Shown piece after piece: positions 652 through 49,733 of a stretch of 49,897 bases of DNA. A model generated the notes under the pieces. It had not been told where the DNA came from. It ran no database searches and worked only from the letters and a program-made list of their open reading frames with translations. The position numbers and the translations under genes were made by a program. Location: the NCBI GenBank assembly GCA_002255585.1, contig NCBJ01000007.1, forward strand, positions 1-49,897. The letters run 5' to 3'. Positions within the stretch are counted from its first letter, which is position 1; each line of letters begins with the position of its first letter. This DNA is from Parcubacteria group bacterium 21-54-25 (GTDB lineage: Bacteria; Patescibacteriota; Minisyncoccia; Phycocordibacterales; Phycocordibacteraceae).

Positions 652-906
652 ATGAAGAAACACCGCATCGCTCAGGACGTAAAGGAGCAGATTATCAACC
701 GCATCAAGAACGACGGTATCTCGGTCGTTGAAGCCGCTAAAGACCACGGTATCTCCGAGAACACTATCTATGGTTGGATTGCGAAGTCAACCGAAGGGCA
801 ACCGACACTGTCTGAAATCATCAAACTGAAGCGAGAGAACACCCAGCTCATGCAGCTTGTTGGCGAGATCACGCTCAAGCTGTCTGAGGCCCAAAAAAAG
901 AAGTGA
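652..906 (+). CDS. IS3-family transposase OrfA (HTH)
   Basis: 84 aa with an HTH ('ISVVEAAKDHGISENTIYGWI') and a leucine-zipper-like C-terminus. It ends in an A7G run. Confidence 0.85.
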   Translation: MKKHRIAQDVKEQIINRIKNDGISVVEAAKDHGISENTIYGWIAKSTEGQPTLSEIIKLKRENTQLMQLVGEITLKLSEAQKKK

Positions 907-1723
907 GAGAAGGCAACACCACCAAAGCTCTCCAGCACGAGAGCTCGGCATCTCGCTGCGCACTCTGTACTATCACCCACTCAAACCCGACAAAGACTGG
1001 CAGGTCAAGTGCCAGATCGAAGAAGTCCTCAGAGAGCATCCGTCATACGGCTCTCGGCGGCTTGCCATACACCTCACGATGAACCGCAAGAGGGTGAAGC
1101 GAGTGATGAGCCTGTTCGGCATCAAGGCATATCGCCGGAGAGGCAAGAAATGGCACAGAACAACGAATATCAAGGTGATGTATCCGAATCTCCTGATGAC
1201 GATGTGCCCCATGTATGAGAATCACATCTGGTGTGCCGACTTCACGTACATCCCGTTTCAAGGGAGATTCGTGTATGTCGCCACCGTCATCGACCTGTAT
1301 ACACGGAAGATTGTCGGAATGTCGGTATACACCACTCATGCCGTACAGCTCGTGCTCTCGGCATTCATGAACGCCCTGCACAGCCACCCTCGACCGTTCA
1401 TCTTCCACAGCGACAACGGCAGTGAATACAACGCTGAGATATATATCGAGGCATTAGAGACCGTCGGCACGATGATCTCTCGCTCAGCTCCCGGCTGTCC
1501 CTGGGAGAACGGCTACCAGGAGTCCTTCTACAATCAGTTCAAGATCGACTTCGGCGATCCGTCGAGATTCGCAACTCTCGGCGAGCTTGTTCTCGCCATC
1601 TATCAGACGATCTGGCAGTACAACCACGCGAGAATCCACTCCGCATTAAAAATGTCGCCTATGCAGTTTGCACTTCAGAGTGCCGCCGCATACAATTCAG
1701 GGAACAAGGATCGTGTGCAATGA
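857..1723 (+). CDS. IS3-family transposase OrfB (DDE/rve catalytic domain), probably made as an OrfAB fusion
   Basis: 'IWCADFTYIPFQGRFVYVATVIDLYTRKIVG ... FHSDNGSEY ... PWENGYQESFY ... YNHARIHSAL'. It overlaps orfA by 50 nt. Its frame is +1 relative to orfA. Confidence 0.85.
   Translation: MLARSRSSCLRPKKRSERRQHHQSSPARELGISLRTLYYHPLKPDKDWQVKCQIEEVLREHPSYGSRRLAIHLTMNRKRVKRVMSLFGIKAYRRRGKKWHRTTNIKVMYPNLLMTMCPMYENHIWCADFTYIPFQGRFVYVATVIDLYTRKIVGMSVYTTHAVQLVLSAFMNALHSHPRPFIFHSDNGSEYNAEIYIEALETVGTMISRSAPGCPWENGYQESFYNQFKIDFGDPSRFATLGELVLAIYQTIWQYNHARIHSALKMSPMQFALQSAAAYNSGNKDRVQ
894..900 (+). other. Slippery A-AAA-AAG heptamer (part of an A7G run) in the orfA/orfB overlap
   Basis: In the orfA frame the sequence reads caA AAA AAG. 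This is the classical IS3 frameshift motif, but see the finding on the frame relationship. Confidence 0.6.
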
Positions 1724-16216: not shown

Positions 16217-17701
16217 ATGGCACGTACAAATCGTCCCCCAATTATCGCCGTCATGGGTCATATTGATCATGGGAAGTCGTCTTTGCTTGACTACATTCGC
16301 AAAAGCAATACCGTAGCAGGAGAGTCCGGTGGCATCACACAACACGTGTCTGCCTACGAGGTTGAACACGTTTACGAAGGCGCGCCACGGCGCATCACCT
16401 TTCTTGACACTCCCGGGCATGAAGCTTTTCACGCGCTTCGGGCACGTGGCGCTTCCGTTGCCGACGTAGCCATTTTGGTGGTCGCCGCCGATGAAGGCGT
16501 AAAACCGCAGACACTTGATGCACTTGCCGCCATAAATGAAGCAGGTATCCCGTATGTTGTGGCGCTCACAAAGATCGACAAGCGCGAAGCAGATGTCGAG
16601 CGCGCAAAGACATCGCTGTTGGAGAACGAGGTATATCTTGAGGGGCTTGGTGGCGCAGTACCGTATGCGCCCATTTCTTCGAAAAGTGGCGAAGGCGTGC
16701 CCGCACTCCTTGACCTCGTGCTGTTAGCTGCTGATCTCGCCGAGCTTTCGGCGGATGCACACGCGCTTGCGGCTGGTTTTGTGTTGGAGTCGACGCAAGA
16801 CCCAAGGCGCGGGCTTTCGGCAACGCTTATTGTCAAAGAAGGTACACTCACAACAGGTGTATATGTAGTAGCAGGTGAAGCCTATGCGCCGGTGCGCTTC
16901 ATGGAGAATTTTCTTGGTGTGCGCGTGATGGAAGCAGGCCCCTCCTCGCCAGTGCACGTTGCTGGCTTTTCCGCACTGCCTCCAGCGGGGACACCCTTCG
17001 TGGTGGTGACATCACGTAAAGAAGCACAGGCACGTCATCACGAGAAATCTGTTTTGTCGCCAAAACATACAACCACTGGGCAGGCAGTCGCGCAGGATGT
17101 TGCAGTTATGCCGCTTGTTATAAAGGCCGATGTCACGGGCAGTCTTGAGGCAATTGCTCATGAACTCACAAAGATTGCCCACGAGCACGCGCAATTGCAT
17201 ATCGTAGCCACTGGCGTGGGCGCAGTGACGGAAAACGATGTCAAAATGGCGCATGCTGCCTCCGGCGTTGTGGTGGCGTTCCATGTGTCCGTTGAGGCAT
17301 CTGCGCGCGATCTAGCGATGCGCATGAGTGTCCCCGTTGAAACTTTCACTATCATTTACGACCTTAGCGAACGTATCAACGCACTGCTTTTGGAGCGCGC
17401 ACCACACGTAACCAAAGAAGAAGCGCTCGGGGAAGCGAAGATACTCAGAACCTTTAGTGCGACCGCGCGTAAGCGCGTTGCTGGCGCGCGACTGGTATCT
17501 GGCTCCATGGCGGTGGGAGCACTGGTGCGAATTATGCGTCGTGATATTGAGCTTGGACGTGGCAAGATTACGAACCTGCAACAGGCGCGTGCGGACGTAC
17601 GAGAAATCCGCACGGAAGGTGAGTTTGGGCTTGAGATCGAGACCAAAGCAGACGTGGCAGGAGGCGACACCATCACTGCATATACGATTGTTGAAGCATG
17701 A
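16217..17701 (+). CDS. infB: Translation initiation factor IF-2 (short form lacking the long N-terminal region)
   Basis: G-domain 'VMGHIDHGKSSLLD', 'DTPGHEAF', 'TKID', and the C-terminal IF-2 domains. Confidence 0.9.
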   Translation: MARTNRPPIIAVMGHIDHGKSSLLDYIRKSNTVAGESGGITQHVSAYEVEHVYEGAPRRITFLDTPGHEAFHALRARGASVADVAILVVAADEGVKPQTLDALAAINEAGIPYVVALTKIDKREADVERAKTSLLENEVYLEGLGGAVPYAPISSKSGEGVPALLDLVLLAADLAELSADAHALAAGFVLESTQDPRRGLSATLIVKEGTLTTGVYVVAGEAYAPVRFMENFLGVRVMEAGPSSPVHVAGFSALPPAGTPFVVVTSRKEAQARHHEKSVLSPKHTTTGQAVAQDVAVMPLVIKADVTGSLEAIAHELTKIAHEHAQLHIVATGVGAVTENDVKMAHAASGVVVAFHVSVEASARDLAMRMSVPVETFTIIYDLSERINALLLERAPHVTKEEALGEAKILRTFSATARKRVAGARLVSGSMAVGALVRIMRRDIELGRGKITNLQQARADVREIRTEGEFGLEIETKADVAGGDTITAYTIVEA

Positions 17702-18024
17702 GCGGACATCGCGACCAAGCAGAAGAAGCGCTCTTGATGCGTCTTGCCGCGCGGTACATCGCGCGTGAAGCAAATAGAGATTCACTCATCACGCCGACGC
17801 GCGCCACACTTGCACCCGGCCGAACGAAAGCGACGGTCTATGTAAGTGTGTTTCCTGACACCGCGGTCGAGAGCGCGCTCTCGTTCCTCCGGCGTCGGCA
17901 GCATGATTTTTTTGAGTTTTTGAAAAAAGAATCACGTCTCTCACCAATTCCCGGCGTACGATTCGAATTTGACCTCGGCGAGAAAAACCGCCAGCACTTG
18001 GACGACATTTCACGAAAGCTGTGA
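17698..18024 (+). CDS. rbfA: Ribosome-binding factor A
   Basis: 108 aa, overlapping the infB stop by 4 nt (classical infB-rbfA synteny). 'ITPTRATLAPGRTKATVYVSVF' fits the RbfA KH-like core. Confidence 0.75.
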   Translation: MSGHRDQAEEALLMRLAARYIAREANRDSLITPTRATLAPGRTKATVYVSVFPDTAVESALSFLRRRQHDFFEFLKKESRLSPIPGVRFEFDLGEKNRQHLDDISRKL

Positions 18025-18041
18025 GGCCCGAGCGGGAATCG
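18021..18041. repeat. Direct repeat, distal copy of the tRNA-Cys 3' end (21 nt)
   Basis: GTGAGGCCCGAGCGGGAATCG is identical to 18187-18207. It contains the rbfA stop codon. Confidence 0.95.
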
Positions 18042-18186
18042 GTCACGAGTCACTAAGTAAAACACTTCACCGATGCTTGCATTTTGCTAAGTGCTCGCGA
18101 CCCCGCCTCGCGACACTCGCACTGCTCGTGTATCGCTGCGGCCTGCGATTCCCGACGAAGCATGCGCAGGCATGCTTCTCTCGCGC
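18042..18186 (-). mobile_element. Miniature insertion E1 (145 nt) between the two copies of the tRNA-Cys 3' end
   Basis: It shares GTCACGAGTCACTA and AAGTGCTCGCGACCCCGCCTCGC with element E2, which lies in inverted orientation. It contains an inverted copy of the tRNA T-loop and T-stem (TGCGATTCCCG, 18144-18154) and a 9-bp hairpin (18157-18178). Confidence 0.6.
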
Positions 18187-18207
18187 GTGAGGCCCGAGCG
18201 GGAATCG
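18187..18207. repeat. Direct repeat, tRNA-proximal copy (the 3' end of tRNA-Cys itself)
   Basis: Identical to 18021-18041. Confidence 0.95.
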
Positions 18208-18261
18208 CACCCGCGCATCGCGGTTTTGCAGACCGCTGCGTTTCTACTTCGCCATCGGGCC
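18190..18261 (-). tRNA. tRNA-Cys (GCA)
   Basis: Reverse complement: GGCCCGA-TG-GCGA...-GCGGT-CTGCAAA-ACCGC-GATGC-GCGGG-TGCGATT-CCCGC-TCGGGCC-T. It has a 3-bp D-stem and a T-loop with G55. Confidence 0.85.
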
Positions 18262-18335
18262 TTGTGCATAGAGAGTAACAGACATACACTATTTCCTCCA
18301 CAGGACGTGTTATATGGTATCGTTTAACCTGAACT

Positions 18336-18424
18336 GCCCGGGTGGCGGAATGGTAGACGCACAGGGCTTAAAACCCTGAGGGGGCCTAAAGATCCCCGTG
18401 CCGGTTCGAGTCCGGCCCCGGGTA
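18336..18424 (+). tRNA. tRNA-Leu (UAA)
   Basis: Acceptor GCCCGGG/CCCGGGT, anticodon loop CTTAAAA, long variable arm, T-loop TTCGAGT. Confidence 0.9.
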
Positions 18425-18492
18425 CTTTGAATAATAAGGAATATTTTCTTATCTACCGCGGCCGATTGCTACCCACAAAAAAGGACATCCTA

Positions 18493-18521
18493 TTGAAGCT
18501 CCTTTCATTTTCCGCTAGTAT
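18493..18521 (+). promoter_or_regulatory. Sigma70-like promoter upstream of tRNA-Lys
   Basis: TTGAAG (18493-18498), 17-nt spacer, TAGTAT (18516-18521). The tRNA starts 10 nt downstream. Confidence 0.45.
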
Positions 18522-18530
18522 GCAAATTAT

Positions 18531-18603
18531 CCGCCTATAGCTCAATTGGTAGAGCAGTTGCCTCTTAAGCAATTGGTTCCAGGTTCGAGTCCTGGTGGGC
18601 GGA
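18531..18603 (+). tRNA. tRNA-Lys (CUU)
   Basis: Acceptor CCGCCTA/TGGGCGG, anticodon loop CTCTTAA, T-loop TTCGAGT. Confidence 0.88.
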
Positions 18604-18673
18604 CTGGGAGTATAGAAAAAGAGGGAAATGTCATACGGGACGTTCTGCGCAGGAGGCGTATACTTTCCCTTGG

Positions 18674-18758
18674 GGGCGAGTGGCGGAATTGGTATACGCG
18701 CATGGCTTAGGACCATGTTCCGAAAGGATTGAGGGTTCGAGTCCCTCCTCGCCCACCA
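18674..18758 (+). tRNA. tRNA-Leu (UAG), CCA encoded
   Basis: Acceptor GGGCGAG/CTCGCCC, anticodon loop CTTAGGA, long variable arm, T-loop TTCGAGT. Confidence 0.9.
18738..18757. repeat. Direct repeat, tRNA-proximal copy (3' end of tRNA-Leu(UAG))
   Basis: CGAGTCCCTCCTCGCCCACC compared with the distal copy CGAGTCCCTCTTTGCCCACC: 18 of 20 identical, and both changes keep G-U pairing with the acceptor 5' strand. Confidence 0.9.
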
Positions 18759-18931
18759 AGAACCGAGCCGCGCGCGAATGCGCGCGGCGACTATCCTTTG
18801 TGCGGCGGGAAGGGCCTCGAAGGCCGGAGCCGGTATACAAGACGAGCGAAGCGAGTGCTTGTCGGCGAGGCGGGGTCGCGAGCACTTGGCACAATACGTG
18901 CCGCGAAGTACTGTGCGTAGTGACTCGTGAC
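18758..18931 (+). mobile_element. Miniature insertion E2 (174 nt) between the two copies of the tRNA-Leu(UAG) 3' end
   Basis: The distal 85 nt or so are homologous to E1 (a 23-nt and a 14-nt block are identical). It has a 9-bp hairpin (18767-18788) and a degenerate inverted copy of the tRNA 3' end (18799-18819). Confidence 0.6.
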
Positions 18932-18951
18932 CGAGTCCCTCTTTGCCCACC
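18932..18951. repeat. Direct repeat, distal copy of the tRNA-Leu(UAG) 3' end
   Basis: See 18738-18757. It ends 7 nt before the ATG of the cysteine desulfurase gene. Confidence 0.9.
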
Positions 18952-18958
18952 TTAATCT

Positions 18959-20137
18959 ATGCAAAAATTACGAAAACGAGTCTATCTGGATTGGGCTGCG
19001 GCAGCGCCAGTGGCTCCACGCGCGCGTCGCGCTTTTACGCGCGCGCTTGCAATCTACGGCAATCCTTCAGGTGCGCATGCTGAGGGCCGTGCTGCGCGCA
19101 TGGTTCTCGAAGATGCACGGCGCACGATCGCTCGTCTTACTGAAGTAAAAGCTGACGATATCATTTTTACTTCCGGCGCAACCGAGGCGAATGCACTGGC
19201 TCTGTTGGGGCACATACACGCACTCCGAGAGAACGGGCGCGCTGAGTCGCGCACACACCTTCTCTATCTCCCCACCGCACACCGTTCGGTTATCGAGACG
19301 GTATTTGCGCTTATGCGCCAGGGCGTTGCCGCCGAGCCACTTCCCCTTGCGTCGGATGGTCGCGTTGATACCGAAACACTGGTTCGCATGCTGCGGCCGG
19401 AGACCGCGCTTATTTCAATGGACGCTGTGTGTGGCGAGACGGGGACAATCTGGAACACGCGAGAGGTGCGACGCGTATTAGAACATATGGGCGAGAAAGG
19501 GCCTCGTCCGCTCTTGCATGTGGACGCGAGTCAGGCACCGCTTGCCACTCGTATCACCCGTTCACATTGGGGTGCGGATTTGCTTGTGCTTGATGCGCAA
19601 AAAGCAGGCGGCGTGCGCGGCATAGGTGCGCTTATTGCTCACCGTACGATACCGCTTGTGCCGCTTACGCGTGGCGGGGGGCATGAGCGCGGTGTGCGTC
19701 CTGGCACAGAACCAGTGGCGCTTGCCGCGTCATTTGCCGCGGCATTGGAGGTGGCGACAGCGGGTCGAGAACGTTTTGTCGCACACGCTGCGCACACGCG
19801 CCACGCACTGCTTGCCGCCCTTGCTCCCATACCGGCGCTCATGCCAAATGGCGGGAAGGAAACCGTACCACACATCGTGAACATTTCACTTGTTGGGCGC
19901 GACACCGATTATCTAGTCGCACTGCTCGACGAAGCAGGATTTGCAGTGTCCACGAGGAGTGCCTGCGAGACAGATGCGGCTGGTTCGCACGTCGTGCTTG
20001 CGCTTACCAACGACGTCGCTCGCGCCGCCTCGACGCTGCGAATATCGTGGGGACCAGAGACGAAAGAGGTTGATTGTAGACGCTTCGCACATGCACTTGC
20101 GCAGGGAGTTGCGTTTCTTGACGGTGACGCCGTATAG
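18959..20137 (+). CDS. Cysteine desulfurase (NifS/IscS-like class V aminotransferase)
   Basis: 'VYLDWAAAAP', 'FTSGATEANALAL', 'LHVDASQA', and the active-site region 'STRSACE'. Confidence 0.85.
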   Translation: MQKLRKRVYLDWAAAAPVAPRARRAFTRALAIYGNPSGAHAEGRAARMVLEDARRTIARLTEVKADDIIFTSGATEANALALLGHIHALRENGRAESRTHLLYLPTAHRSVIETVFALMRQGVAAEPLPLASDGRVDTETLVRMLRPETALISMDAVCGETGTIWNTREVRRVLEHMGEKGPRPLLHVDASQAPLATRITRSHWGADLLVLDAQKAGGVRGIGALIAHRTIPLVPLTRGGGHERGVRPGTEPVALAASFAAALEVATAGRERFVAHAAHTRHALLAALAPIPALMPNGGKETVPHIVNISLVGRDTDYLVALLDEAGFAVSTRSACETDAAGSHVVLALTNDVARAASTLRISWGPETKEVDCRRFAHALAQGVAFLDGDAV

Positions 20138-35689: not shown

Positions 35690-36553
35690 TCACACGCGTC
35701 GCCATGCGCCGAACTCTTCCTTCAGAAGCCCGCGTAGCTCAAGTGATACCAGTGCCGAAAGTGCTTCGTGCGCTGGGAGTTTTGCATTTCGGACCAGTTC
35801 ATCGCGTGGGAGTGGATTTTCAAGAAGTGCATAGACGGCCTGTTCCGCGTTTGAGAGGTCTTGCGGCTCCGGGCGCGTTTCTTTTAGTGTTTCGTCCGAC
35901 GCAATACGGAGCGCTTCCAGCAGATGCTGTGGCTCGGTTACCATAGTCGCGCCAAGCCGCAGGAAAATATGTGCCCCAAATCCGTGTGGGTCGCCGATGC
36001 GGTGGGGAACGCACAGCAGCTCGCGATTGTACTCACCTGCAAGTCGTGCGGTGATGAGCGTGCCCGAGCGCTCGCCGGCCTCGACAACAAGAACGGCGTC
36101 AGCGAGTCCGACCATGAGACGGTTTCTTGAAGGGAAGTCGTACGGGTGCGCCGCGTACGTGGGCTCGTGCTCCGAAAGGAGTGCGCCGCCACTGGCAAGA
36201 ATGTCGCGGGCAAGTGGCAGGTTTGTGCGCGGACCAATGACTGTGTCGTCGAGTCCCGAGCCCGGGATAGCAACCGTGTGGAGTCCGGCAGAGAGCGCGG
36301 CGCGGTGTGCTGCGGCGTCGGTGCCAAGCGCTAGCCCCGAGACAACGGACACCGGGTAGCCAGAGAGGCCACCAATAAGCATGGCGACCGCCTCGCGCCC
36401 GTAGCTCGTGAGTGCACGCGAACCTACGACCGCTAAGTACTTGGTATCCGTCGCTGGCCAGCTCCCGCGCATCCAGAGCCGCTTTGGTGGCTGGGGGATT
36501 TCGCGCAGCTGCAGGGGCAGGCTCCTTGTTTGCAACTCGCGTACTTCCATCAC
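35690..36553 (-). CDS. dprA: DNA-processing protein DprA (Smf)
   Basis: 'VVGSRALTSYGREA', 'VSGLALGTDAAAHRAAL', 'VVEAGERSGTLITA'. The dprA-topA synteny is typical. Confidence 0.85.
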   Translation of the reverse strand: MMEVRELQTRSLPLQLREIPQPPKRLWMRGSWPATDTKYLAVVGSRALTSYGREAVAMLIGGLSGYPVSVVSGLALGTDAAAHRAALSAGLHTVAIPGSGLDDTVIGPRTNLPLARDILASGGALLSEHEPTYAAHPYDFPSRNRLMVGLADAVLVVEAGERSGTLITARLAGEYNRELLCVPHRIGDPHGFGAHIFLRLGATMVTEPQHLLEALRIASDETLKETRPEPQDLSNAEQAVYALLENPLPRDELVRNAKLPAHEALSALVSLELRGLLKEEFGAWRRV

Positions 36554-43935: not shown

Positions 43936-44006
43936 TGCGGGATCGTCTAATGGTAGGACCGCGGCCTTTGGAGCCGTTAATCTTGGTTCGAATCCAAGTC
44001 CCGCAG
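43936..44006 (+). tRNA. tRNA-Gln (UUG)
   Basis: U1:A72 acceptor TGCGGGA/TCCCGCA, anticodon loop CTTTGGA, T-loop TTCGAAT. Confidence 0.9.
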
Positions 44007-45046
44007 CCTGAATTCAACTCTCAATTGCACCACCCCAGACTTCTAATGGACTCAGGAAGCCGTGCCGCTTCCGGGGTCTCGTGTTCAAAGCATACTCCAC
44101 CCGGGCAATCGCTGCATCCGATACGTCCCTAAAGTCGGTGCCCTTGGGGAAATACTGCCGCAACAGGCCGTTCGCATTTTCATTGCTGCCACGCTCGCAT
44201 GAACAATACGGATGAGCGAAGAAGCAGTTGATGCCGAGCGCTTCTTCTATCTCCTCCCATCGCTGATTCTCGCTTCCGTTGTCGGTGGTCAGCGTGTGCA
44301 CCGGAAGGCCGGCAAGCCGTCCGATCACGGCAGTGCTTGTCGCCCCACTCGTCTTGTCGGCAACCCTGGTGACGAGGAAGAGTCCACTCTTCCTCTCAAG
44401 CAAGGTGTTCACCCCTGGCGCATGGTCACCTGATTCGACCGTGTCGCCCTCCCAGTCGCCGATGCGCGACCGGGTGTCGACGATCGTCGGACGAGTCTCG
44501 ATGGATGGCCCTTTTGGCTTGAAAATACGCTGTCCCTTGCGAGAACCATGAGGCTGCCGCTTCTTCTGCTTGCGGCGCAGGTACGGACGCAGGTCTTCTT
44601 TCCCCGGCTTCACCCAGCCATTGCCGCCCCGGTGCACTTGCGCGTATATGAATTGATATATCGCCTCATGTGAGATGGTGCCAATCGCTTCGAGCTTCAT
44701 GCGTCCGGCAATCTGTTCGGGAGACCAGTTTTGTTTGAGGTGGTCGATGACATACTGACGAATCGTTTCATTCCTCAATCGCTCCGTACGGCCCCGACTC
44801 TTTCGTTTTTCCTGGGCCCGTTCTTCGGCGAGTCGTGGCGTATATTGCCGTCGATATGCAGGACGATTCTTGTTGATTTCTCGGACGATTGACGAGTGCG
44901 AGCGTCCGAGACGCTTCGCAATCGACCGCACTGATTCCTTTCTCCACAATCCTTGCTGTATTTCCTCACGCTCTTCCACGCTCAACTGCTTGTGTGCCAT
45001 ATCCCGCTATTTTAGCGGAGTGGTGCAATTACTTGTTGAACTCAAG
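44007..45046 (-). mobile_element. Intact IS30-family insertion sequence (about 1040 bp), directly abutting tRNA-Gln
   Basis: IRs: TGAATTCAACTCTCAATTGCACCAC (44009-) and the reverse complement of the right end, TGAGTTCAACAAGTAATTGCACCAC, matching at 20 of 25 positions. It carries a single transposase ORF. Confidence 0.88.
44014..45000 (-). CDS. IS30-family transposase
   Basis: 328 aa with an N-terminal HTH ('LSVEEREEIQQGLWRKESVRSIAKRLGRSHSSIVREI'), a DDE core ('GDWEGDTV', 'LTTDNGSEN') and 'LNTRPRKRHGF'. Confidence 0.9.
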   Translation of the reverse strand: MAHKQLSVEEREEIQQGLWRKESVRSIAKRLGRSHSSIVREINKNRPAYRRQYTPRLAEERAQEKRKSRGRTERLRNETIRQYVIDHLKQNWSPEQIAGRMKLEAIGTISHEAIYQFIYAQVHRGGNGWVKPGKEDLRPYLRRKQKKRQPHGSRKGQRIFKPKGPSIETRPTIVDTRSRIGDWEGDTVESGDHAPGVNTLLERKSGLFLVTRVADKTSGATSTAVIGRLAGLPVHTLTTDNGSENQRWEEIEEALGINCFFAHPYCSCERGSNENANGLLRQYFPKGTDFRDVSDAAIARVEYALNTRPRKRHGFLSPLEVWGGAIES

Positions 45047-48658: not shown

Positions 48659-49459
48659 CTAGGATTTCTGCCATTTCTCGCAGTGCTTCTCGTAGAAAGT
48701 ACGGGGTGGCATTTTGAGACTGCTGTGTATGCGCCTAGTGTTGTAGTAGTGGATGTACCGGCCGATTGCCTCGGTCAGTGCGTCGATAGTTTTGTGCCGT
48801 GACGCCTTGCCGAACTCGAGCTTGAAGGTGTTGAAGAACGACTCCTGGTGACCATTTCTCCATGGACTTGCCTTGGGGGAGTGGGAAGGGAGGATCTTTC
48901 GTGAGACGAGCCATTCGAGCACGGCATGAGCAGTGTATTCACTGCCCTGGTCGGAGTGGAATATAGATGGAACCTCTCGTTTGCGCACGGCTTCCTCAAG
49001 AACGGCAAGAATGAGCGCGGTGGTGTGGTGAAAGCCAAGCTGCCAAGCAAGCACTTCTCTGGTGTAGCGATCCACCACCGTTGCCAGGTAGAGCTTTCGT
49101 CCACCCCAGGGAAGCTCCGTGAAGTCCCCCACCCAGATGGCAGAGGGTGCAATGGGGGTGATATGCGCCGTGCGGTTGGGTACTCCTGAGACGGAGCGCT
49201 TCCGTCCATATTTCGAGGGCTTTCTGCGCACCTTAGGTTCAATGCCGTAAAGATGCATGACGCGTAGGATGCGTTTCTTGTTCACCTTCAGGTGCAGTGC
49301 GATACGTCGGTGTCCGTAGGCAGGGTGTTCTTCGAGTGCGGCAACGATCAGGTCACGCAGTTCCCGATCTTTCTCCGGAAGCCGTGCGTGATAGTAGAGG
49401 GAGGAACGGGAGATACCTAGGATGCGAGCAAGGGCGGCTTTCGTGAGTTCCTGCTCCAC
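48659..49459 (-). CDS. IS3-family transposase OrfB (rve)
   Basis: 'IWVGDFTELPWGGRKLYLATVVDRYTREVLAW', 'FHSDQGSEY', 'PWRNGHQESFF' and 'YNTRRIHSSL'. Confidence 0.85.
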   Translation of the reverse strand: MEQELTKAALARILGISRSSLYYHARLPEKDRELRDLIVAALEEHPAYGHRRIALHLKVNKKRILRVMHLYGIEPKVRRKPSKYGRKRSVSGVPNRTAHITPIAPSAIWVGDFTELPWGGRKLYLATVVDRYTREVLAWQLGFHHTTALILAVLEEAVRKREVPSIFHSDQGSEYTAHAVLEWLVSRKILPSHSPKASPWRNGHQESFFNTFKLEFGKASRHKTIDALTEAIGRYIHYYNTRRIHSSLKMPPRTFYEKHCEKWQKS

Positions 49460-49466
49460 AAGCAGG

Positions 49467-49733
49467 TTACGTGCCAGGAAAGGAGCTCTTCCTCTTCGTC
49501 TTCTGGTGGAGAATCATTTCTCCGATGATTGCCTTCAATTCCTGGTTCTCCTGACGAAGGCGCTGCACCTCCGTGCTTGAGGTGTGTCCGTTCTTTGATT
49601 GCTTCCGAAGCCACTTCTTGATCGTATACTCGGCAATAAGGAAGGTCTTTGCTGCGTCCGGGATGCTCATTCCCTCATCCTTGATCGCAGAGATGATCTT
49701 CGCCCGCTGCTCGGGTGTAATGTACTGGGCCAT
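49467..49733 (-). CDS. IS3-family transposase OrfA (HTH)
   Basis: 'ISAIKDEGMSIPDAAKTFLIAEYTIKKWL' followed by a leucine-zipper-like segment. Confidence 0.8.
   Translation of the reverse strand: MAQYITPEQRAKIISAIKDEGMSIPDAAKTFLIAEYTIKKWLRKQSKNGHTSSTEVQRLRQENQELKAIIGEMILHQKTKRKSSFPGT

What the first reader, a model, noticed from the sequence alone, without database searches (positions are those of the whole stretch)
18021..18951. Two related miniature insertions, each bracketed by a 20-21-nt duplication of the adjacent tRNA gene's 3' end (from T-loop C56 to just past the discriminator)
Direct repeats, seen in the sequence:
- tRNA-Cys (minus strand): the 21-mer GTGAGGCCCGAGCGGGAATCG occurs at 18187-18207, where it is the tRNA 3' end, and again at 18021-18041, with 145 nt in between.
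- tRNA-Leu(UAG) (plus strand): CGAGTCCCTCCTCGCCCACC at 18738-18757 is repeated as CGAGTCCCTCTTTGCCCACC at 18932-18951, with 174 nt in between.
- In both cases the duplication starts at the same tRNA position, the CGA of the T-loop.

Relationship between the two inserts:
- They are homologous in their distal 85 nt or so and lie in opposite genomic orientation, so each has the same orientation relative to its tRNA.
- They share identical blocks: GTCACGAGTCACTA abutting the distal repeat, and AAGTGCTCGCGACCCCGCCTCGC (18089-18111, which equals the reverse complement of 18865-18887).
- Between the blocks, small hairpins differ in sequence but keep their pairing (ATGC-aa-GCAT versus GGCAC-aatac-GTGCC, enclosed by AGCACTT/AAGTGTT versus AGCACTT/AAGTACT). 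This looks like covariation.

Features common to each insert:
- a 9-bp GC hairpin about 10 nt after the tRNA end (18157-18178; 18767-18788)
- an inverted partial copy of the tRNA 3' end (TGCGATTCCCG at 18144-18154; AGGGCCTCG at 18811-18819)
- a hairpin across the junction between the element and the distal repeat (GACTCG-tgac-CGAGTC in E2, 5 of 6 pairs in E1)

Established knowledge: integrases of phages and ICEs target tRNA 3' halves and regenerate them, which leaves att direct repeats. Elements flanked by att sites but lacking recombinase genes (CIME-like) are known.

Inference: these could be a family of miniature non-autonomous integrative elements mobilised in trans, or a structured RNA module co-transcribed with the tRNAs. 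No integrase gene lies in this window.
Basis: partly seen in the sequence, partly recalled or inferred. Interest (0 to 1): 0.72.

Follow-up and report, generated by a model that had tools for sequence, protein, structure and literature searches.

The report
Miniature structured elements inserted at tRNA ends
The two short inserts next to tRNA-Cys and tRNA-Leu are copies of a widespread, apparently undescribed family of gene-less insertion elements in Paceibacteria that land in the 3' part of tRNA genes, carry a replacement tRNA end, and share a strongly conserved folded core whose role and mobilising enzyme are still unknown.

Summary
Both direct repeats and the homology between the two inserts are there.

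The inserts belong to a large family:
- 66 copies in 46 sources (45 loci plus the window) and 104 more in 80 metagenome loci. All loci whose record names an organism are Patescibacteria/Paceibacteria-type MAGs.
- About 85% of the copies that can be assessed lie just downstream of a same-strand tRNA gene, covering at least 25 tRNA species.

Each copy has the same order of parts: tRNA 3' segment, hairpin, an inverted segment complementary to that tRNA's T-arm, a ~100-nt core, then a second copy of the tRNA 3' segment. That second copy almost always starts at C56.

The core folds into a three-way junction on the tRNA-sense strand, with strong covariation. No Rfam family matches it, and five literature searches found no description.

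Orthologous loci show the E1 site both occupied and cleanly empty, in a patchy pattern. Tandem arrays and decayed remnants also occur.

No recombinase, reverse transcriptase or transposase recurs near the copies.

Best reading: non-autonomous tRNA-targeting mobile elements whose folded strand (RNA or ssDNA) is the functional part. The mobilisation mechanism is not resolved.

The parts
18187..18207 (-). E1 proximal repeat: the functional 3' end of tRNA-Cys (C56 to 3 nt past the discriminator)
   Evidence: D3
18157..18178 (-). E1 hairpin hp0: 9-bp stem with loop CTGC on the tRNA strand. This loop recurs in the family. There is no U-tract.
18144..18154 (-). E1 inverted segment (IR): CGGGAATCGCA on the tRNA strand, complementary to tRNA-Cys positions 54-64. 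It pairs either with the proximal tRNA end or with the distal repeat (helix P1).
   Evidence: (I11)
18041..18143 (-). E1 conserved core (covariance-model hit, 92.6 bits). Parts in + coordinates: GGCCGCAGC 18135-18143; variable hairpin hp1 18112-18134; 23-mer 18089-18111; variable hairpin hp2 18056-18088; TAGTGACTCGTGAC 18042-18055.
18021..18041 (-). E1 distal repeat: the displaced copy of the tRNA-Cys 3' end. It contains the rbfA stop codon TGA at 18022-18024 on the + strand.
18738..18757 (+). E2 proximal repeat: the functional 3' end of tRNA-Leu(UAG)
   Evidence: D5
18767..18788 (+). E2 hairpin hp0 (9-bp GC stem, loop GAAT, no U-tract). The orthologous copy in L063 keeps the stem through compensatory changes.
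18800..18821 (+). E2 inverted segment (IR), a degenerate complement of the tRNA-Leu T-arm and acceptor 3' strand. It is better preserved in the L063 orthologue.
18822..18932 (+). E2 conserved core (covariance-model hit, 74.2 bits). Parts: GGCCGGAGC 18822-18830; hp1 18831-18864; 23-mer 18865-18887; hp2 18888-18917; TAGTGACTCGTGAC 18918-18931.
18932..18951 (+). E2 distal repeat (18/20 identical; both changes are C to T). It ends 7 nt before the start codon of the cysteine-desulfurase-like gene at 18959.
17987..18006 (-). Terminator-like hairpin with a T-run on the tRNA-Cys strand, just beyond the E1 distal repeat. This makes co-transcription of E1 with tRNA-Cys plausible.
   Evidence: consensus match only

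Best explanation
E1 and E2 are two copies of a family of roughly 150-200-nt insertion elements that encode no protein and target the 3' part of tRNA genes in Paceibacteria.

A class-A copy, which both window copies are, sits between tRNA positions 55 and 56. In order, it supplies:
1. a replacement tRNA 3' segment (C56 to the discriminator plus 1-3 nt), which keeps the tRNA intact;
2. a hairpin;
3. an inverted segment complementary to that tRNA's T-arm;
4. a core of about 100 nt.

The second copy of the tRNA 3' segment lies on the far side, which produces the direct repeat. Which of the two copies is the original is inferred, not shown.

The core folds on the tRNA-sense strand into a three-way junction:
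- P1: inverted segment paired with the tRNA 3' segment.
- P2-P3: GCC/GGC plus variable hairpin hp1.
- P4-P6: GGTCGCGAG-CACT paired with AGTG-A-CTCGTGACC, plus variable hairpin hp2.

The joining point GTGAC|C56 lies exactly at that junction.

I infer that this folded strand, as RNA co-transcribed with the tRNA or as single-stranded DNA, is what a trans-acting enzyme recognises. I also infer that identity or complementarity with the tRNA T-arm directs the element to its target.

Shown: the family, the tRNA association, the repeat boundaries, the fold and its strand, presence/absence at orthologous sites, and the absence of a linked enzyme gene.
Inferred: ongoing mobility, the enzyme, RNA versus ssDNA, and the chemistry of insertion.
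For: Family size and host range:
- The exact 23-mer occurs in 44 loci of Patescibacteria MAGs, up to at least 14 copies per genome.
- The 21-mer occurs in 85 metagenome loci.
- Covariance model R1 finds 66 + 104 copies at E<1e-5, and only E1 and E2 in the window.

tRNA association:
- 39 of 50 and 58 of 84 copies have a same-strand tRNA upstream. Most of the others lie at locus edges. 25 tRNA species are represented.

Repeat geometry:
- For repeats of 7 nt or more, 34 of 35 start at C56 directly after GTGAC. Many are 19-21 nt long.

Structure:
- On an unfitted MAFFT alignment, 83.8% of cells pair against 35-41% when partners are slid, with 202 double-change cells against 55-93.
- On the model-fitted alignment, 92.6% pair against 32-38%, and 25 of 33 pairs have changes on both sides.
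- Diverged orthologues show compensatory changes in P2, P4 and P5.

Folded strand:
- All one-sided changes in P4 are G-C to G-U.
- There are 121 G.U cells against 21 A.C cells.
- The sense strand folds 0.7-19.7 kcal/mol (median about 10) better than the antisense in all 48 copies.

Inverted segment is tRNA-specific:
- 12.3/14 complementary to the copy's own tRNA against 8.9/14 to other tRNAs.

Insertion polymorphism:
- In L063/L064 the rbfA stop codon overlaps the tRNA-Cys 3' end with no insert. L061 is also empty.
- L058 is occupied, with a 35-nt repeat.
- IF-2 identities pair window with L063 (76%) and L058 with L061 (78%), so each pair contains one occupied and one empty site.

Other signs of mobility:
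- Tandem arrays and collapsed remnants.
- Many copies lie at contig ends, and some relatives' contigs break right after rbfA.

No known equivalent:
- No Rfam match.
- No phage or plasmid match.
- No description in five literature searches.
Against: - No excised or circular form, no transcript and no mobilising enzyme has been seen.
- Recurrent neighbours are housekeeping genes only.
- Only one of 124 loci holds a homologue of the window's IS transposases.
- The 'empty' E1 sites could be precise deletions between the repeats rather than ancestral states.
- Orthologous E2 copies in genomes only 76% identical in IF-2 keep their 5' half about 95% identical. This points to purifying selection and could mean a host function rather than selfish mobility.
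- Exact conservation of a 23-mer across several candidate orders points the same way.
- How an element acquires the matching tRNA 3' segment and inverted segment for at least 25 different tRNAs is unexplained.
Confidence: 0.72

Rival explanations
1. A host-beneficial structured RNA. The core is a 3'-trailer RNA made with the tRNA, perhaps released by tRNA-processing enzymes, because P1 imitates the acceptor/T minihelix of its own tRNA. It is kept by selection. New copies arise by local duplication and by homologous recombination after DNA uptake, not by a dedicated transposition machinery.
For: - hp0 in E1 and E2 lacks a U-tract, and a terminator-like hairpin follows the E1 distal repeat.
- The sense-strand fold contains G.U pairs.
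- Orthologous E2 copies keep sequence and structure across deep divergence.
- In many copies the inverted segment is split exactly at the acceptor/T-stem boundary by a hairpin, which gives a tRNA-like junction.
- The window encodes DprA, a transformation protein.
Against: - The pattern is patchy at one orthologous site.
- Tandem arrays at one tRNA hold decayed older copies.
- The distal repeat decays (E2 is 18/20; many copies keep only 7-10 nt).
- About 10-15% of copies are not next to a tRNA.
- Copy number ranges from 1 to at least 14 among genomes.
- There is no consistent set of tRNAs that carry it.
Confidence: 0.2
2. An RNA-mediated mobile element. The transcript itself guides or catalyses insertion. 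Possible routes are target-primed reverse transcription by a trans-acting reverse transcriptase (SINE-like), reverse-splicing-like chemistry, or a bridge-RNA-like dual guide. In each case the inverted segment and the 3' tail would pair with the two strands of the tRNA gene at the T-arm.
For: - The fold is strand-specific with conserved junction nucleotides.
- The inverted segment spans the insertion point (positions 54-65) and is tRNA-specific.
- In young copies with perfect 19-20-nt repeats, the inverted segment is an imperfect match that resembles a related tRNA, as expected for an inherited guide.
- Repeat length varies: 5, 19-21, 35 and at least 43 nt.
- 5'-truncated remnants far outnumber 3'-truncated ones.
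Against: - No reverse transcriptase or other partner was found.
- The 5'-truncation bias is explained by collapse of the palindromic 5' part in arrays.
- The inverted segment follows the gene's trailer, not CCA, so it is not a primer-binding site for mature tRNA.
- No known ribozyme family matches.
- G.T pairs and GCGAAGC-type mini-hairpins are equally compatible with folded ssDNA (own knowledge).
Confidence: 0.2
3. Scars of larger integrative elements or prophages: attL and attR brought together by internal deletion. On this view the shared blocks are remains of integrase arm sites.
For: Repeats running from the T-loop to the tRNA 3' end are what tyrosine integrases of the T-loop class leave behind (own knowledge; Williams 2002). 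In L143 and L120, the similarity between the proximal and distal copies continues through the trailer and terminator, as if the element carried a piece of a source tRNA locus.
Against: - All 170 copies are small and of similar build.
- None of the exact-core copies parsed has an ORF inserted in hp1 or hp2.
- No integrase lies near any copy.
- The shared blocks form covarying helices on one strand, which protein-binding arm sites would not do.
- There is no similarity to any phage or plasmid record.
Confidence: 0.04

Closest known systems
tRNA-gene integrative elements of the T-loop sublocation class (tyrosine integrases; Williams 2002, own knowledge), and their recombinase-less derivatives (CIMEs)
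   Same: - Insertion in the 3' part of a tRNA gene.
- The tRNA is kept intact by an element-adjacent copy of its 3' end.
- A direct repeat runs from the T-loop to just past the 3' end.
- Tandem accretion occurs at the same tRNA.
- CIME-like: no recombinase gene of its own.
   Different: - Size is 150-200 nt rather than kilobases.
- No cognate integrase or full-length element was found.
- One family covers at least 25 tRNA species.
- A tRNA-specific inverted segment is present.
- A covarying, strand-specific three-way junction has the joining point at its centre.
Folded single-strand recombination substrates: integron attC sites, the CTXphi attP(+) hairpin, and IS200/IS605 ends with their non-autonomous PATE derivatives
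   Same: - Structure is conserved more than sequence.
- One strand is the active one.
- Hairpins flank the joining point.
- The elements are small and gene-less.
   Different: - No GTTRRRY core and no IntI, Xer-type or TnpA partner was seen.
- IS200/IS605 elements leave no target duplication and do not carry target-derived sequence.
- The core here is a three-way junction with long invariant blocks.
Guide-bearing non-coding RNAs of mobile elements: IS110 bridge RNA, TnpB/IscB omega RNA, and group II intron EBS-IBS pairing
   Same: A conserved scaffold is flanked by short variable segments that match the insertion target. The match spans the insertion point.
   Different: - No adjacent recombinase, nuclease or reverse-transcriptase gene.
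- The matching segments sit in helices that pair with each other, not in open loops.
- The intact target is regenerated next to the element, which a nuclease guide would cut.
SINEs and retrozymes (non-autonomous retroelements of eukaryotes)
   Same: - Short, non-coding, multi-copy and tRNA-related.
- Variable-length target duplications.
- Dependent on an enzyme encoded elsewhere.
   Different: - Bacterial host.
- No poly(A) or reverse-transcriptase partner.
- The tRNA-derived part is the 3' segment of the target gene, not a promoter-bearing tRNA body.
- No hammerhead or other known ribozyme.

Membership tests
tRNA-targeting integrative element (tyrosine integrase, T-loop sublocation) | Insertion within the tRNA gene, with a direct repeat running from the T-loop to the 3' end and an intact tRNA at one junction | tested here: met
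tRNA-targeting integrative element (tyrosine integrase, T-loop sublocation) | Integrase gene inside the element or next to the att site | tested here: not met
   The inserts are 145 and 174 nt and contain no gene. No recombinase recurs among neighbours of 124 loci, and none was found among 40 window ORFs.
tRNA-targeting integrative element (tyrosine integrase, T-loop sublocation) | Excision to a circular form by att x att recombination | not testable with these tools
   Needs reads or PCR across the circle junction and across the empty site.
CIME-like non-autonomous att-flanked element | A cognate autonomous element with the same att sites in the same or related genomes | tested here: inconclusive
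   None was seen in 124 loci (up to about 15 kb each) or in the phage and plasmid collections. Whole genomes could not be scanned.
Classical MITE | Terminal inverted repeats matching an IS, plus a fixed-length target duplication | tested here: not met
   - The ends (C56... and ...GTGAC) are not inverted repeats.
- Repeat length ranges from 2 to at least 43 nt.
- The window's IS3- and IS30-type transposases have a homologue in only 1 of 124 loci.
IS200/IS605-derived PATE or omega-RNA module | Insertion 3' of a fixed tetra- or pentanucleotide without target duplication, with a TnpA/TnpB partner | tested here: not met
   A target-derived repeat is present. No Y1_Tnp or OrfB_IS605 match appeared among the neighbours tested.
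Integron attC site | R''-L''/L'-R' imperfect palindrome with a GTTRRRY core, in arrays next to intI | tested here: not met
   The sequence has no such core. The structure is a three-way junction. No intI was found.
Any curated RNA family (Rfam 15), including tmRNA and self-cleaving ribozymes | Covariance-model match | tested here: not met
   Only tRNAs reach the gathering score. Nothing relevant appears at E up to 10 over 17950-19000. ARAGORN's 'tmRNA*' call at 18663-19011 is unsupported.
Retron ncRNA, group II intron or IS110 bridge RNA | Adjacent reverse-transcriptase or recombinase gene | tested here: not met

The most novel reading that the evidence does not exclude
The element is a protein-less mobile RNA gene. 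Its transcript, made by read-through from the host tRNA, uses its T-arm-complementary segment and its tRNA-like 3' tail to pair with both strands of a tRNA gene. It then directs its own insertion. It would do this either as a guide for a host or distant enzyme (a bacterial SINE-like or bridge-RNA-like system) or by ribozyme chemistry at the three-way junction where the joining point lies.
Probability: 0.2. Interest if true: 0.95.

Novelty: new variant of a known kind. Interest (0 to 1): 0.8.

Why it matters
Paceibacteria and other Patescibacteria have tiny genomes and few recognised mobile elements. Despite that, one MAG in the sample carries at least 14 exact-core copies of this element next to its tRNA genes.

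The family combines three things that have not been described together:
- tRNA-gene targeting with regeneration of the tRNA;
- no coding capacity;
- a deeply conserved, covarying three-way-junction fold with target-matching segments at the joining point.

If the fold acts as RNA, the family is a candidate new class of guide or catalytic RNA and a possible programmable insertion system.

If it acts as folded DNA, it extends the integron and CTXphi type of single-strand recombination to tRNA genes.

There is also a practical side. The copies break metagenomic assemblies at tRNA loci and trigger false tmRNA calls, so a covariance model for the family would improve annotation of these genomes.

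Tried and rejected
- **Viral contigs.** The 16-mer gave 10 hits, all unrelated coding sequence.
- **Partner enzyme by neighbourhood.** I clustered ORFs over 44 and then 124 loci and ran Pfam on the recurrent clusters. Only housekeeping genes came up. A PD-(D/E)XK protein in 5-7 loci lies 0.7-5 kb away and looks like synteny.
- **Window transposases as partners.** Rejected: they have one homologue in 124 loci, and the elements have no terminal inverted repeats.
- **Synteny through the nifS-like gene.** Its closest relative (69% identity) has no tRNA cluster upstream. rbfA worked instead.
- **Inverted segment as a copy of the tRNA 5' half.** Rejected. For tRNA-Ala with G3:U70 the segment has A, so it is the Watson-Crick complement of the 3' strand.
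- **Inverted segment as a primer-binding site for mature tRNA.** Rejected: it follows the gene's trailer, not CCA.
- **Inverted segment templated by the target at insertion.** Rejected for young copies, where it is imperfect while the repeats are perfect.
- **5'-truncated remnants as evidence for reverse transcription.** Weakened. The L035 array shows collapse of the palindromic 5' part instead.
- **P2 register CCGC:GCGG from single-sequence folding.** Rejected in favour of GCC:GGC, because of the compensatory change in L058 and the uncompensated variation at the other positions.
- **Hammerhead, K-turn and retron comparisons.** By eye, the junction strands do not fit.
- **Literature.** Five full-text searches found nothing relevant.
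Full report
**1. The observation**

Both direct repeats are in the sequence as described.
- The 21-mer is exact at 18021-18041 and 18187-18207.
- The 20-mer at 18738-18757 recurs at 18932-18951 with 18/20 identity.
- ARAGORN and Rfam place tRNA-Cys at 18189-18261 (-) and tRNA-Leu(UAG) at 18674-18758 (+). Each repeat therefore runs from T-loop C56 to 2-3 nt past the discriminator.
- The 23-mer and the 14-mer occur only in these two inserts. No chance matches are expected for the 23-mer, even with three mismatches allowed.
- The inserts align with each other in the same orientation relative to their tRNAs.
- The rbfA reading frame (17698-18024) ends with a TGA that lies inside the distal repeat of E1. 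The cysteine-desulfurase-like gene starts 7 nt after the distal repeat of E2.

**2. A large family**

- The exact 23-mer was found in 44 loci of one-genome-per-species contigs. All are Patescibacteria MAGs (Paceibacteria, Yonath-, Lloyd-, Wolfe-, Campbell- and Nomurabacteria, plus some labelled Saccharibacteria). One soil MAG has at least 14 copies.
- A 21-mer found 85 metagenome loci.
- A covariance model built from 43 copies finds 66 copies in 46 sources (45 loci plus the window) and 104 in the metagenome loci at E<1e-5. In the window it finds only E1 and E2.
- Viral contigs, phage records and plasmid records hold nothing related.
- Rfam 15 has no matching family.
- Five full-text literature searches found no description.

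**3. Anatomy**

Read on the tRNA strand, every copy has the same order:

tRNA 3' end; hairpin hp0; inverted segment (IR); (A/G)GCC(G/A)NAGC; variable hairpin hp1; GCGAGGCGGGGTCGCGAGCACTT; variable hairpin hp2; TTAGTGAC(T/C)(C/T)GTGAC; repeat.

There are two classes.
- Class A, which includes both window copies. The repeat starts at C56 in 34 of 35 cases with a repeat of 7 nt or more. It is often 19-21 nt long, ending 1-3 nt past the discriminator.
- Class B, about half of the copies. The repeat is only about 4-8 nt (CACAA-like) and sits at the very end of the tRNA.

Association with tRNAs:
- 39 of 50 genome copies and 58 of 84 metagenome copies have a same-strand tRNA within a few hundred nt upstream. 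Most of the rest are cut off by the locus edge.
- 25 tRNA species are represented.
- About 10-15% of copies have no tRNA next to them.

**4. The fold**

Single-sequence folding gives the same three-way junction in almost all copies. The tRNA-sense strand is always more stable than the antisense strand. The helices are:
- P1: IR paired with the repeat.
- P2: GCC:GGC.
- P3: hp1.
- P4: GGTCGCGAG:CTCGTGACC, with an invariant G.U pair.
- P5: CACT:AGTG.
- P6: hp2.

Covariation:
- On a MAFFT alignment that knows nothing of structure, 83.8% of cells pair, against 35-41% when the partners are slid. There are 202 double-change cells against 55-93.
- On the model-fitted alignment of 66 copies, 92.6% pair against 32-38%. 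Of 33 pairs, 25 have changes on both sides. This alignment leans towards the model, which is why the MAFFT result is given first.
- Diverged members give independent support. L063 has three compensatory pairs in P4/P5. L058 has a C-G to G-C flip in P2 and an A-U to G-C change in P5. The TTAGTAACC subfamily has two more compensatory pairs.

Which strand folds:
- One-sided changes in P4 are all G-C to G-U.
- Overall there are 121 G.U cells against 21 A.C cells.
- The folded strand is therefore the tRNA-sense strand. This does not tell RNA from single-stranded DNA.

Transcription context:
- hp0 of E1 and E2 has no U-tract.
- A terminator-like hairpin lies just beyond the distal repeat of E1.
- Co-transcription with the tRNA is therefore plausible.

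**5. The inverted segment**

- It is specific for the neighbouring tRNA. In class A it is 12.3/14 complementary to positions 54-67 of its own tRNA, against 8.9/14 for other tRNAs. In class B the figures are 7.5/9 against 4.9/9.
- It is the Watson-Crick complement of the 3' strand, not a copy of the tRNA 5' strand (tRNA-Ala G3:U70 case).
- It follows the gene's trailer rather than CCA.
- It covers T54-T55, which the distal repeat lacks.
- It tracks the T55/G55 difference among tRNA-Cys genes.
- In many copies it is split exactly at the acceptor/T-stem boundary by a further hairpin.
- In young copies with perfect 19-20-nt repeats it is often imperfect and resembles a related tRNA. It is therefore inherited from a source copy, not made at insertion. 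Perfect versions may arise later by correction within the hairpin (inference).

**6. Evidence that these are insertions**

rbfA homologues led to loci with the same gene order: Nramp, infB, rbfA, tRNA-Cys, tRNA-Leu, tRNA-Lys, tRNA-Leu, nifS-like.

| Locus | E1 site (tRNA-Cys) | E2 site (tRNA-Leu UAG) |
|---|---|---|
| window | occupied, 21-nt repeat | occupied |
| L063/L064 | empty; rbfA stop codon overlaps the tRNA-Cys 3' end directly | occupied |
| L061 | empty | tRNA not in the locus |
| L058 | occupied, 35-nt repeat, diverged core | no core copy |
| L003 (distant; IF-2 42% identical) | occupied | not examined |

- The empty L063 arrangement is exactly what remains if the 166-bp insertion is removed from the window.
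- IF-2 identities pair window with L063 (76%) and L058 with L061 (78%). Each pair holds one occupied and one empty site. At least two gains, or two precise losses, are needed.
- Tandem arrays occur (L044, L035, L141). In them the older, distal copies have lost their palindromic 5' parts. This also explains why solo 3' ends are common and solo 5' ends are rare.
- Many copies lie at contig ends, and two relatives' contigs stop right after rbfA. Both fit a repeated sequence.

**7. What moves them?**

- The inserts have no gene.
- Neighbours that recur over 124 loci are housekeeping genes: LepA/EF-G-like, Ddl, ABC, RmuC, PolA, PilM, Mur ligase and HtrA.
- The window holds two IS3-type rve transposase genes and an IS30-like IS. 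Their homologues occur in only one of the 124 loci, and the elements have no terminal inverted repeats.
- No tyrosine or serine recombinase, reverse transcriptase or HUH domain was found among 40 window ORFs.
- The partner, if any, is elsewhere in the genome.

**8. Mechanism**

What the anatomy says:
- The joining point GTGAC|C56 sits where P4 meets P1.
- In a free form (a circle or an RNA), the element-borne tRNA segment, hp0 and the IR would form one arm of a closed three-armed structure.
- Some copies carry similarity to the target that continues through the trailer and terminator (L143, L120). This looks as if the element carried a piece of a source tRNA locus (suggestive only).

I therefore favour recombination, or a related joining reaction, between a folded single strand and the tRNA gene. 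Target choice would depend on identity or complementarity with the T-arm, and the tRNA is repaired by the carried 3' segment.

| Route | My weight |
|---|---|
| DNA recombinase acting on ds or folded att sites | about 35% |
| HUH-type ssDNA route | about 15% |
| RNA-mediated route | about 20-25% |
| Spread mainly by homologous recombination of a host-useful RNA | the rest |

None of these is shown.

The strong conservation of orthologous E2 copies means the fold has been under selection long after insertion. That fits an element that stays active, one kept uniform by gene conversion, or one with a host function.

**9. Comparison and verdict**

The closest known things are tRNA-integrating elements of the T-loop class and their recombinase-less derivatives. 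The repeat geometry is the same. The following have no counterpart there:
- the size;
- the lack of any cognate integrase;
- the range of tRNAs;
- the tRNA-specific inverted segment;
- the covarying three-way junction.

Folded-strand recombination sites and guide-bearing RNAs of mobile elements resemble it in logic. Each fails at least one defining feature (see the membership table).

I file it as a new variant of a known kind: a non-autonomous tRNA-targeting insertion element. It has a real chance of being something new in mechanism.

Noticed in passing
window 18663-19011: ARAGORN calls a permuted tmRNA ('tmRNA*', tag AAKYCA**) spanning tRNA-Leu(UAG), E2 and the start of the next gene. Rfam finds no tmRNA there. 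The call is probably triggered by the duplicated tRNA 3' end, so elements of this family may cause false tmRNA annotations.
   Followed up: partly
window 44009-45044: An IS30-like insertion sequence with a 328-aa HTH_38 protein on the minus strand and 28-nt imperfect terminal inverted repeats at 44009-44036 and 45017-45044. It begins 1 nt after the 3' end of tRNA-Gln (43936-44008). This is a second, unrelated mobile element sitting at a tRNA 3' end.
   Followed up: partly
window 857-1720 (+) and 48662-49733 (-): Two IS3-family transposase genes (rve domain; 43% identical to each other) lie near the two ends of the window. The second has an HTH_Tnp_1 orfA at 49470-49733. This contradicts the statement that the window has no integrase-type gene, but they are not linked to the elements.
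   Followed up: yes
window 18199-18205 (tRNA-Cys T-loop); L058, L061: tRNA-Cys has the T-loop TGCGATT, with G instead of the near-universal U at position 55. This holds in the window, L058 and L061, while L063 and L003 have TTCGATT. It occurs with and without the element, so it is not an insertion scar. The element's inverted segment matches whichever base is present.
   Followed up: partly
L063 2824-2830 and window 18021-18024: The rbfA stop codon overlaps the 3' end of the convergent tRNA-Cys gene. After insertion of E1, the stop codon is provided by the distal repeat.
   Followed up: yes
hp1 or hp2 of many copies, e.g. window 18843-18854, L003, L006, L009, L099, L143: A recurrent apical motif, GAGCG(A/T)AGCGA(A/G), sits at the tip of either variable hairpin. 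It is a GCGNAGC mini-hairpin flanked by tandem G.A pairs. d(GCGAAGC) is known as an unusually stable DNA hairpin (own knowledge), which may bear on the RNA-versus-ssDNA question.
   Followed up: no
L008 6116-6199, L011 4869-4952, L029 3723-3806, L014 6658-6710; L034 7870-7980, L035 3852-3965: Two subfamilies of the core stand out. One is a compact form of about 83 nt in which P5-P6 is replaced by CTCC...GGAG plus a short GC hairpin. The other has TTAGTAACC(C/T)GTGAC with compensatory changes in P4/P5.
   Followed up: partly
L059 (ends 67 nt after rbfA), L060 (ends 11 nt after rbfA); many loci: Contigs of relatives stop right where the element would lie, and many metagenomic copies sit within 200 nt of a contig end. 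The family probably fragments assemblies at tRNA loci.
   Followed up: no
L024 4132-4962, L015 35-817, L032 775-1554, L034 3442-4251, L037 7392-8000: A conserved PD-(D/E)XK nuclease-family protein (58-76% identical) lies 0.7-5 kb from elements in 5-7 loci of different genomes. This is probably synteny around tRNA genes, but it was not excluded as a partner.
   Followed up: partly
L007 7300-7480; L033 640-890; L043 7480-7760: These copies have no tRNA gene upstream. L007 follows a protein-coding gene and still has an inverted segment that pairs with the sequence before its hairpin. L043 heads a tandem array whose tRNA body is missing.
   Followed up: partly
window 35693-36553: A DprA gene (DNA-processing protein for natural transformation) is present. 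It is relevant if the elements spread between genomes through DNA uptake and recombination.
   Followed up: no
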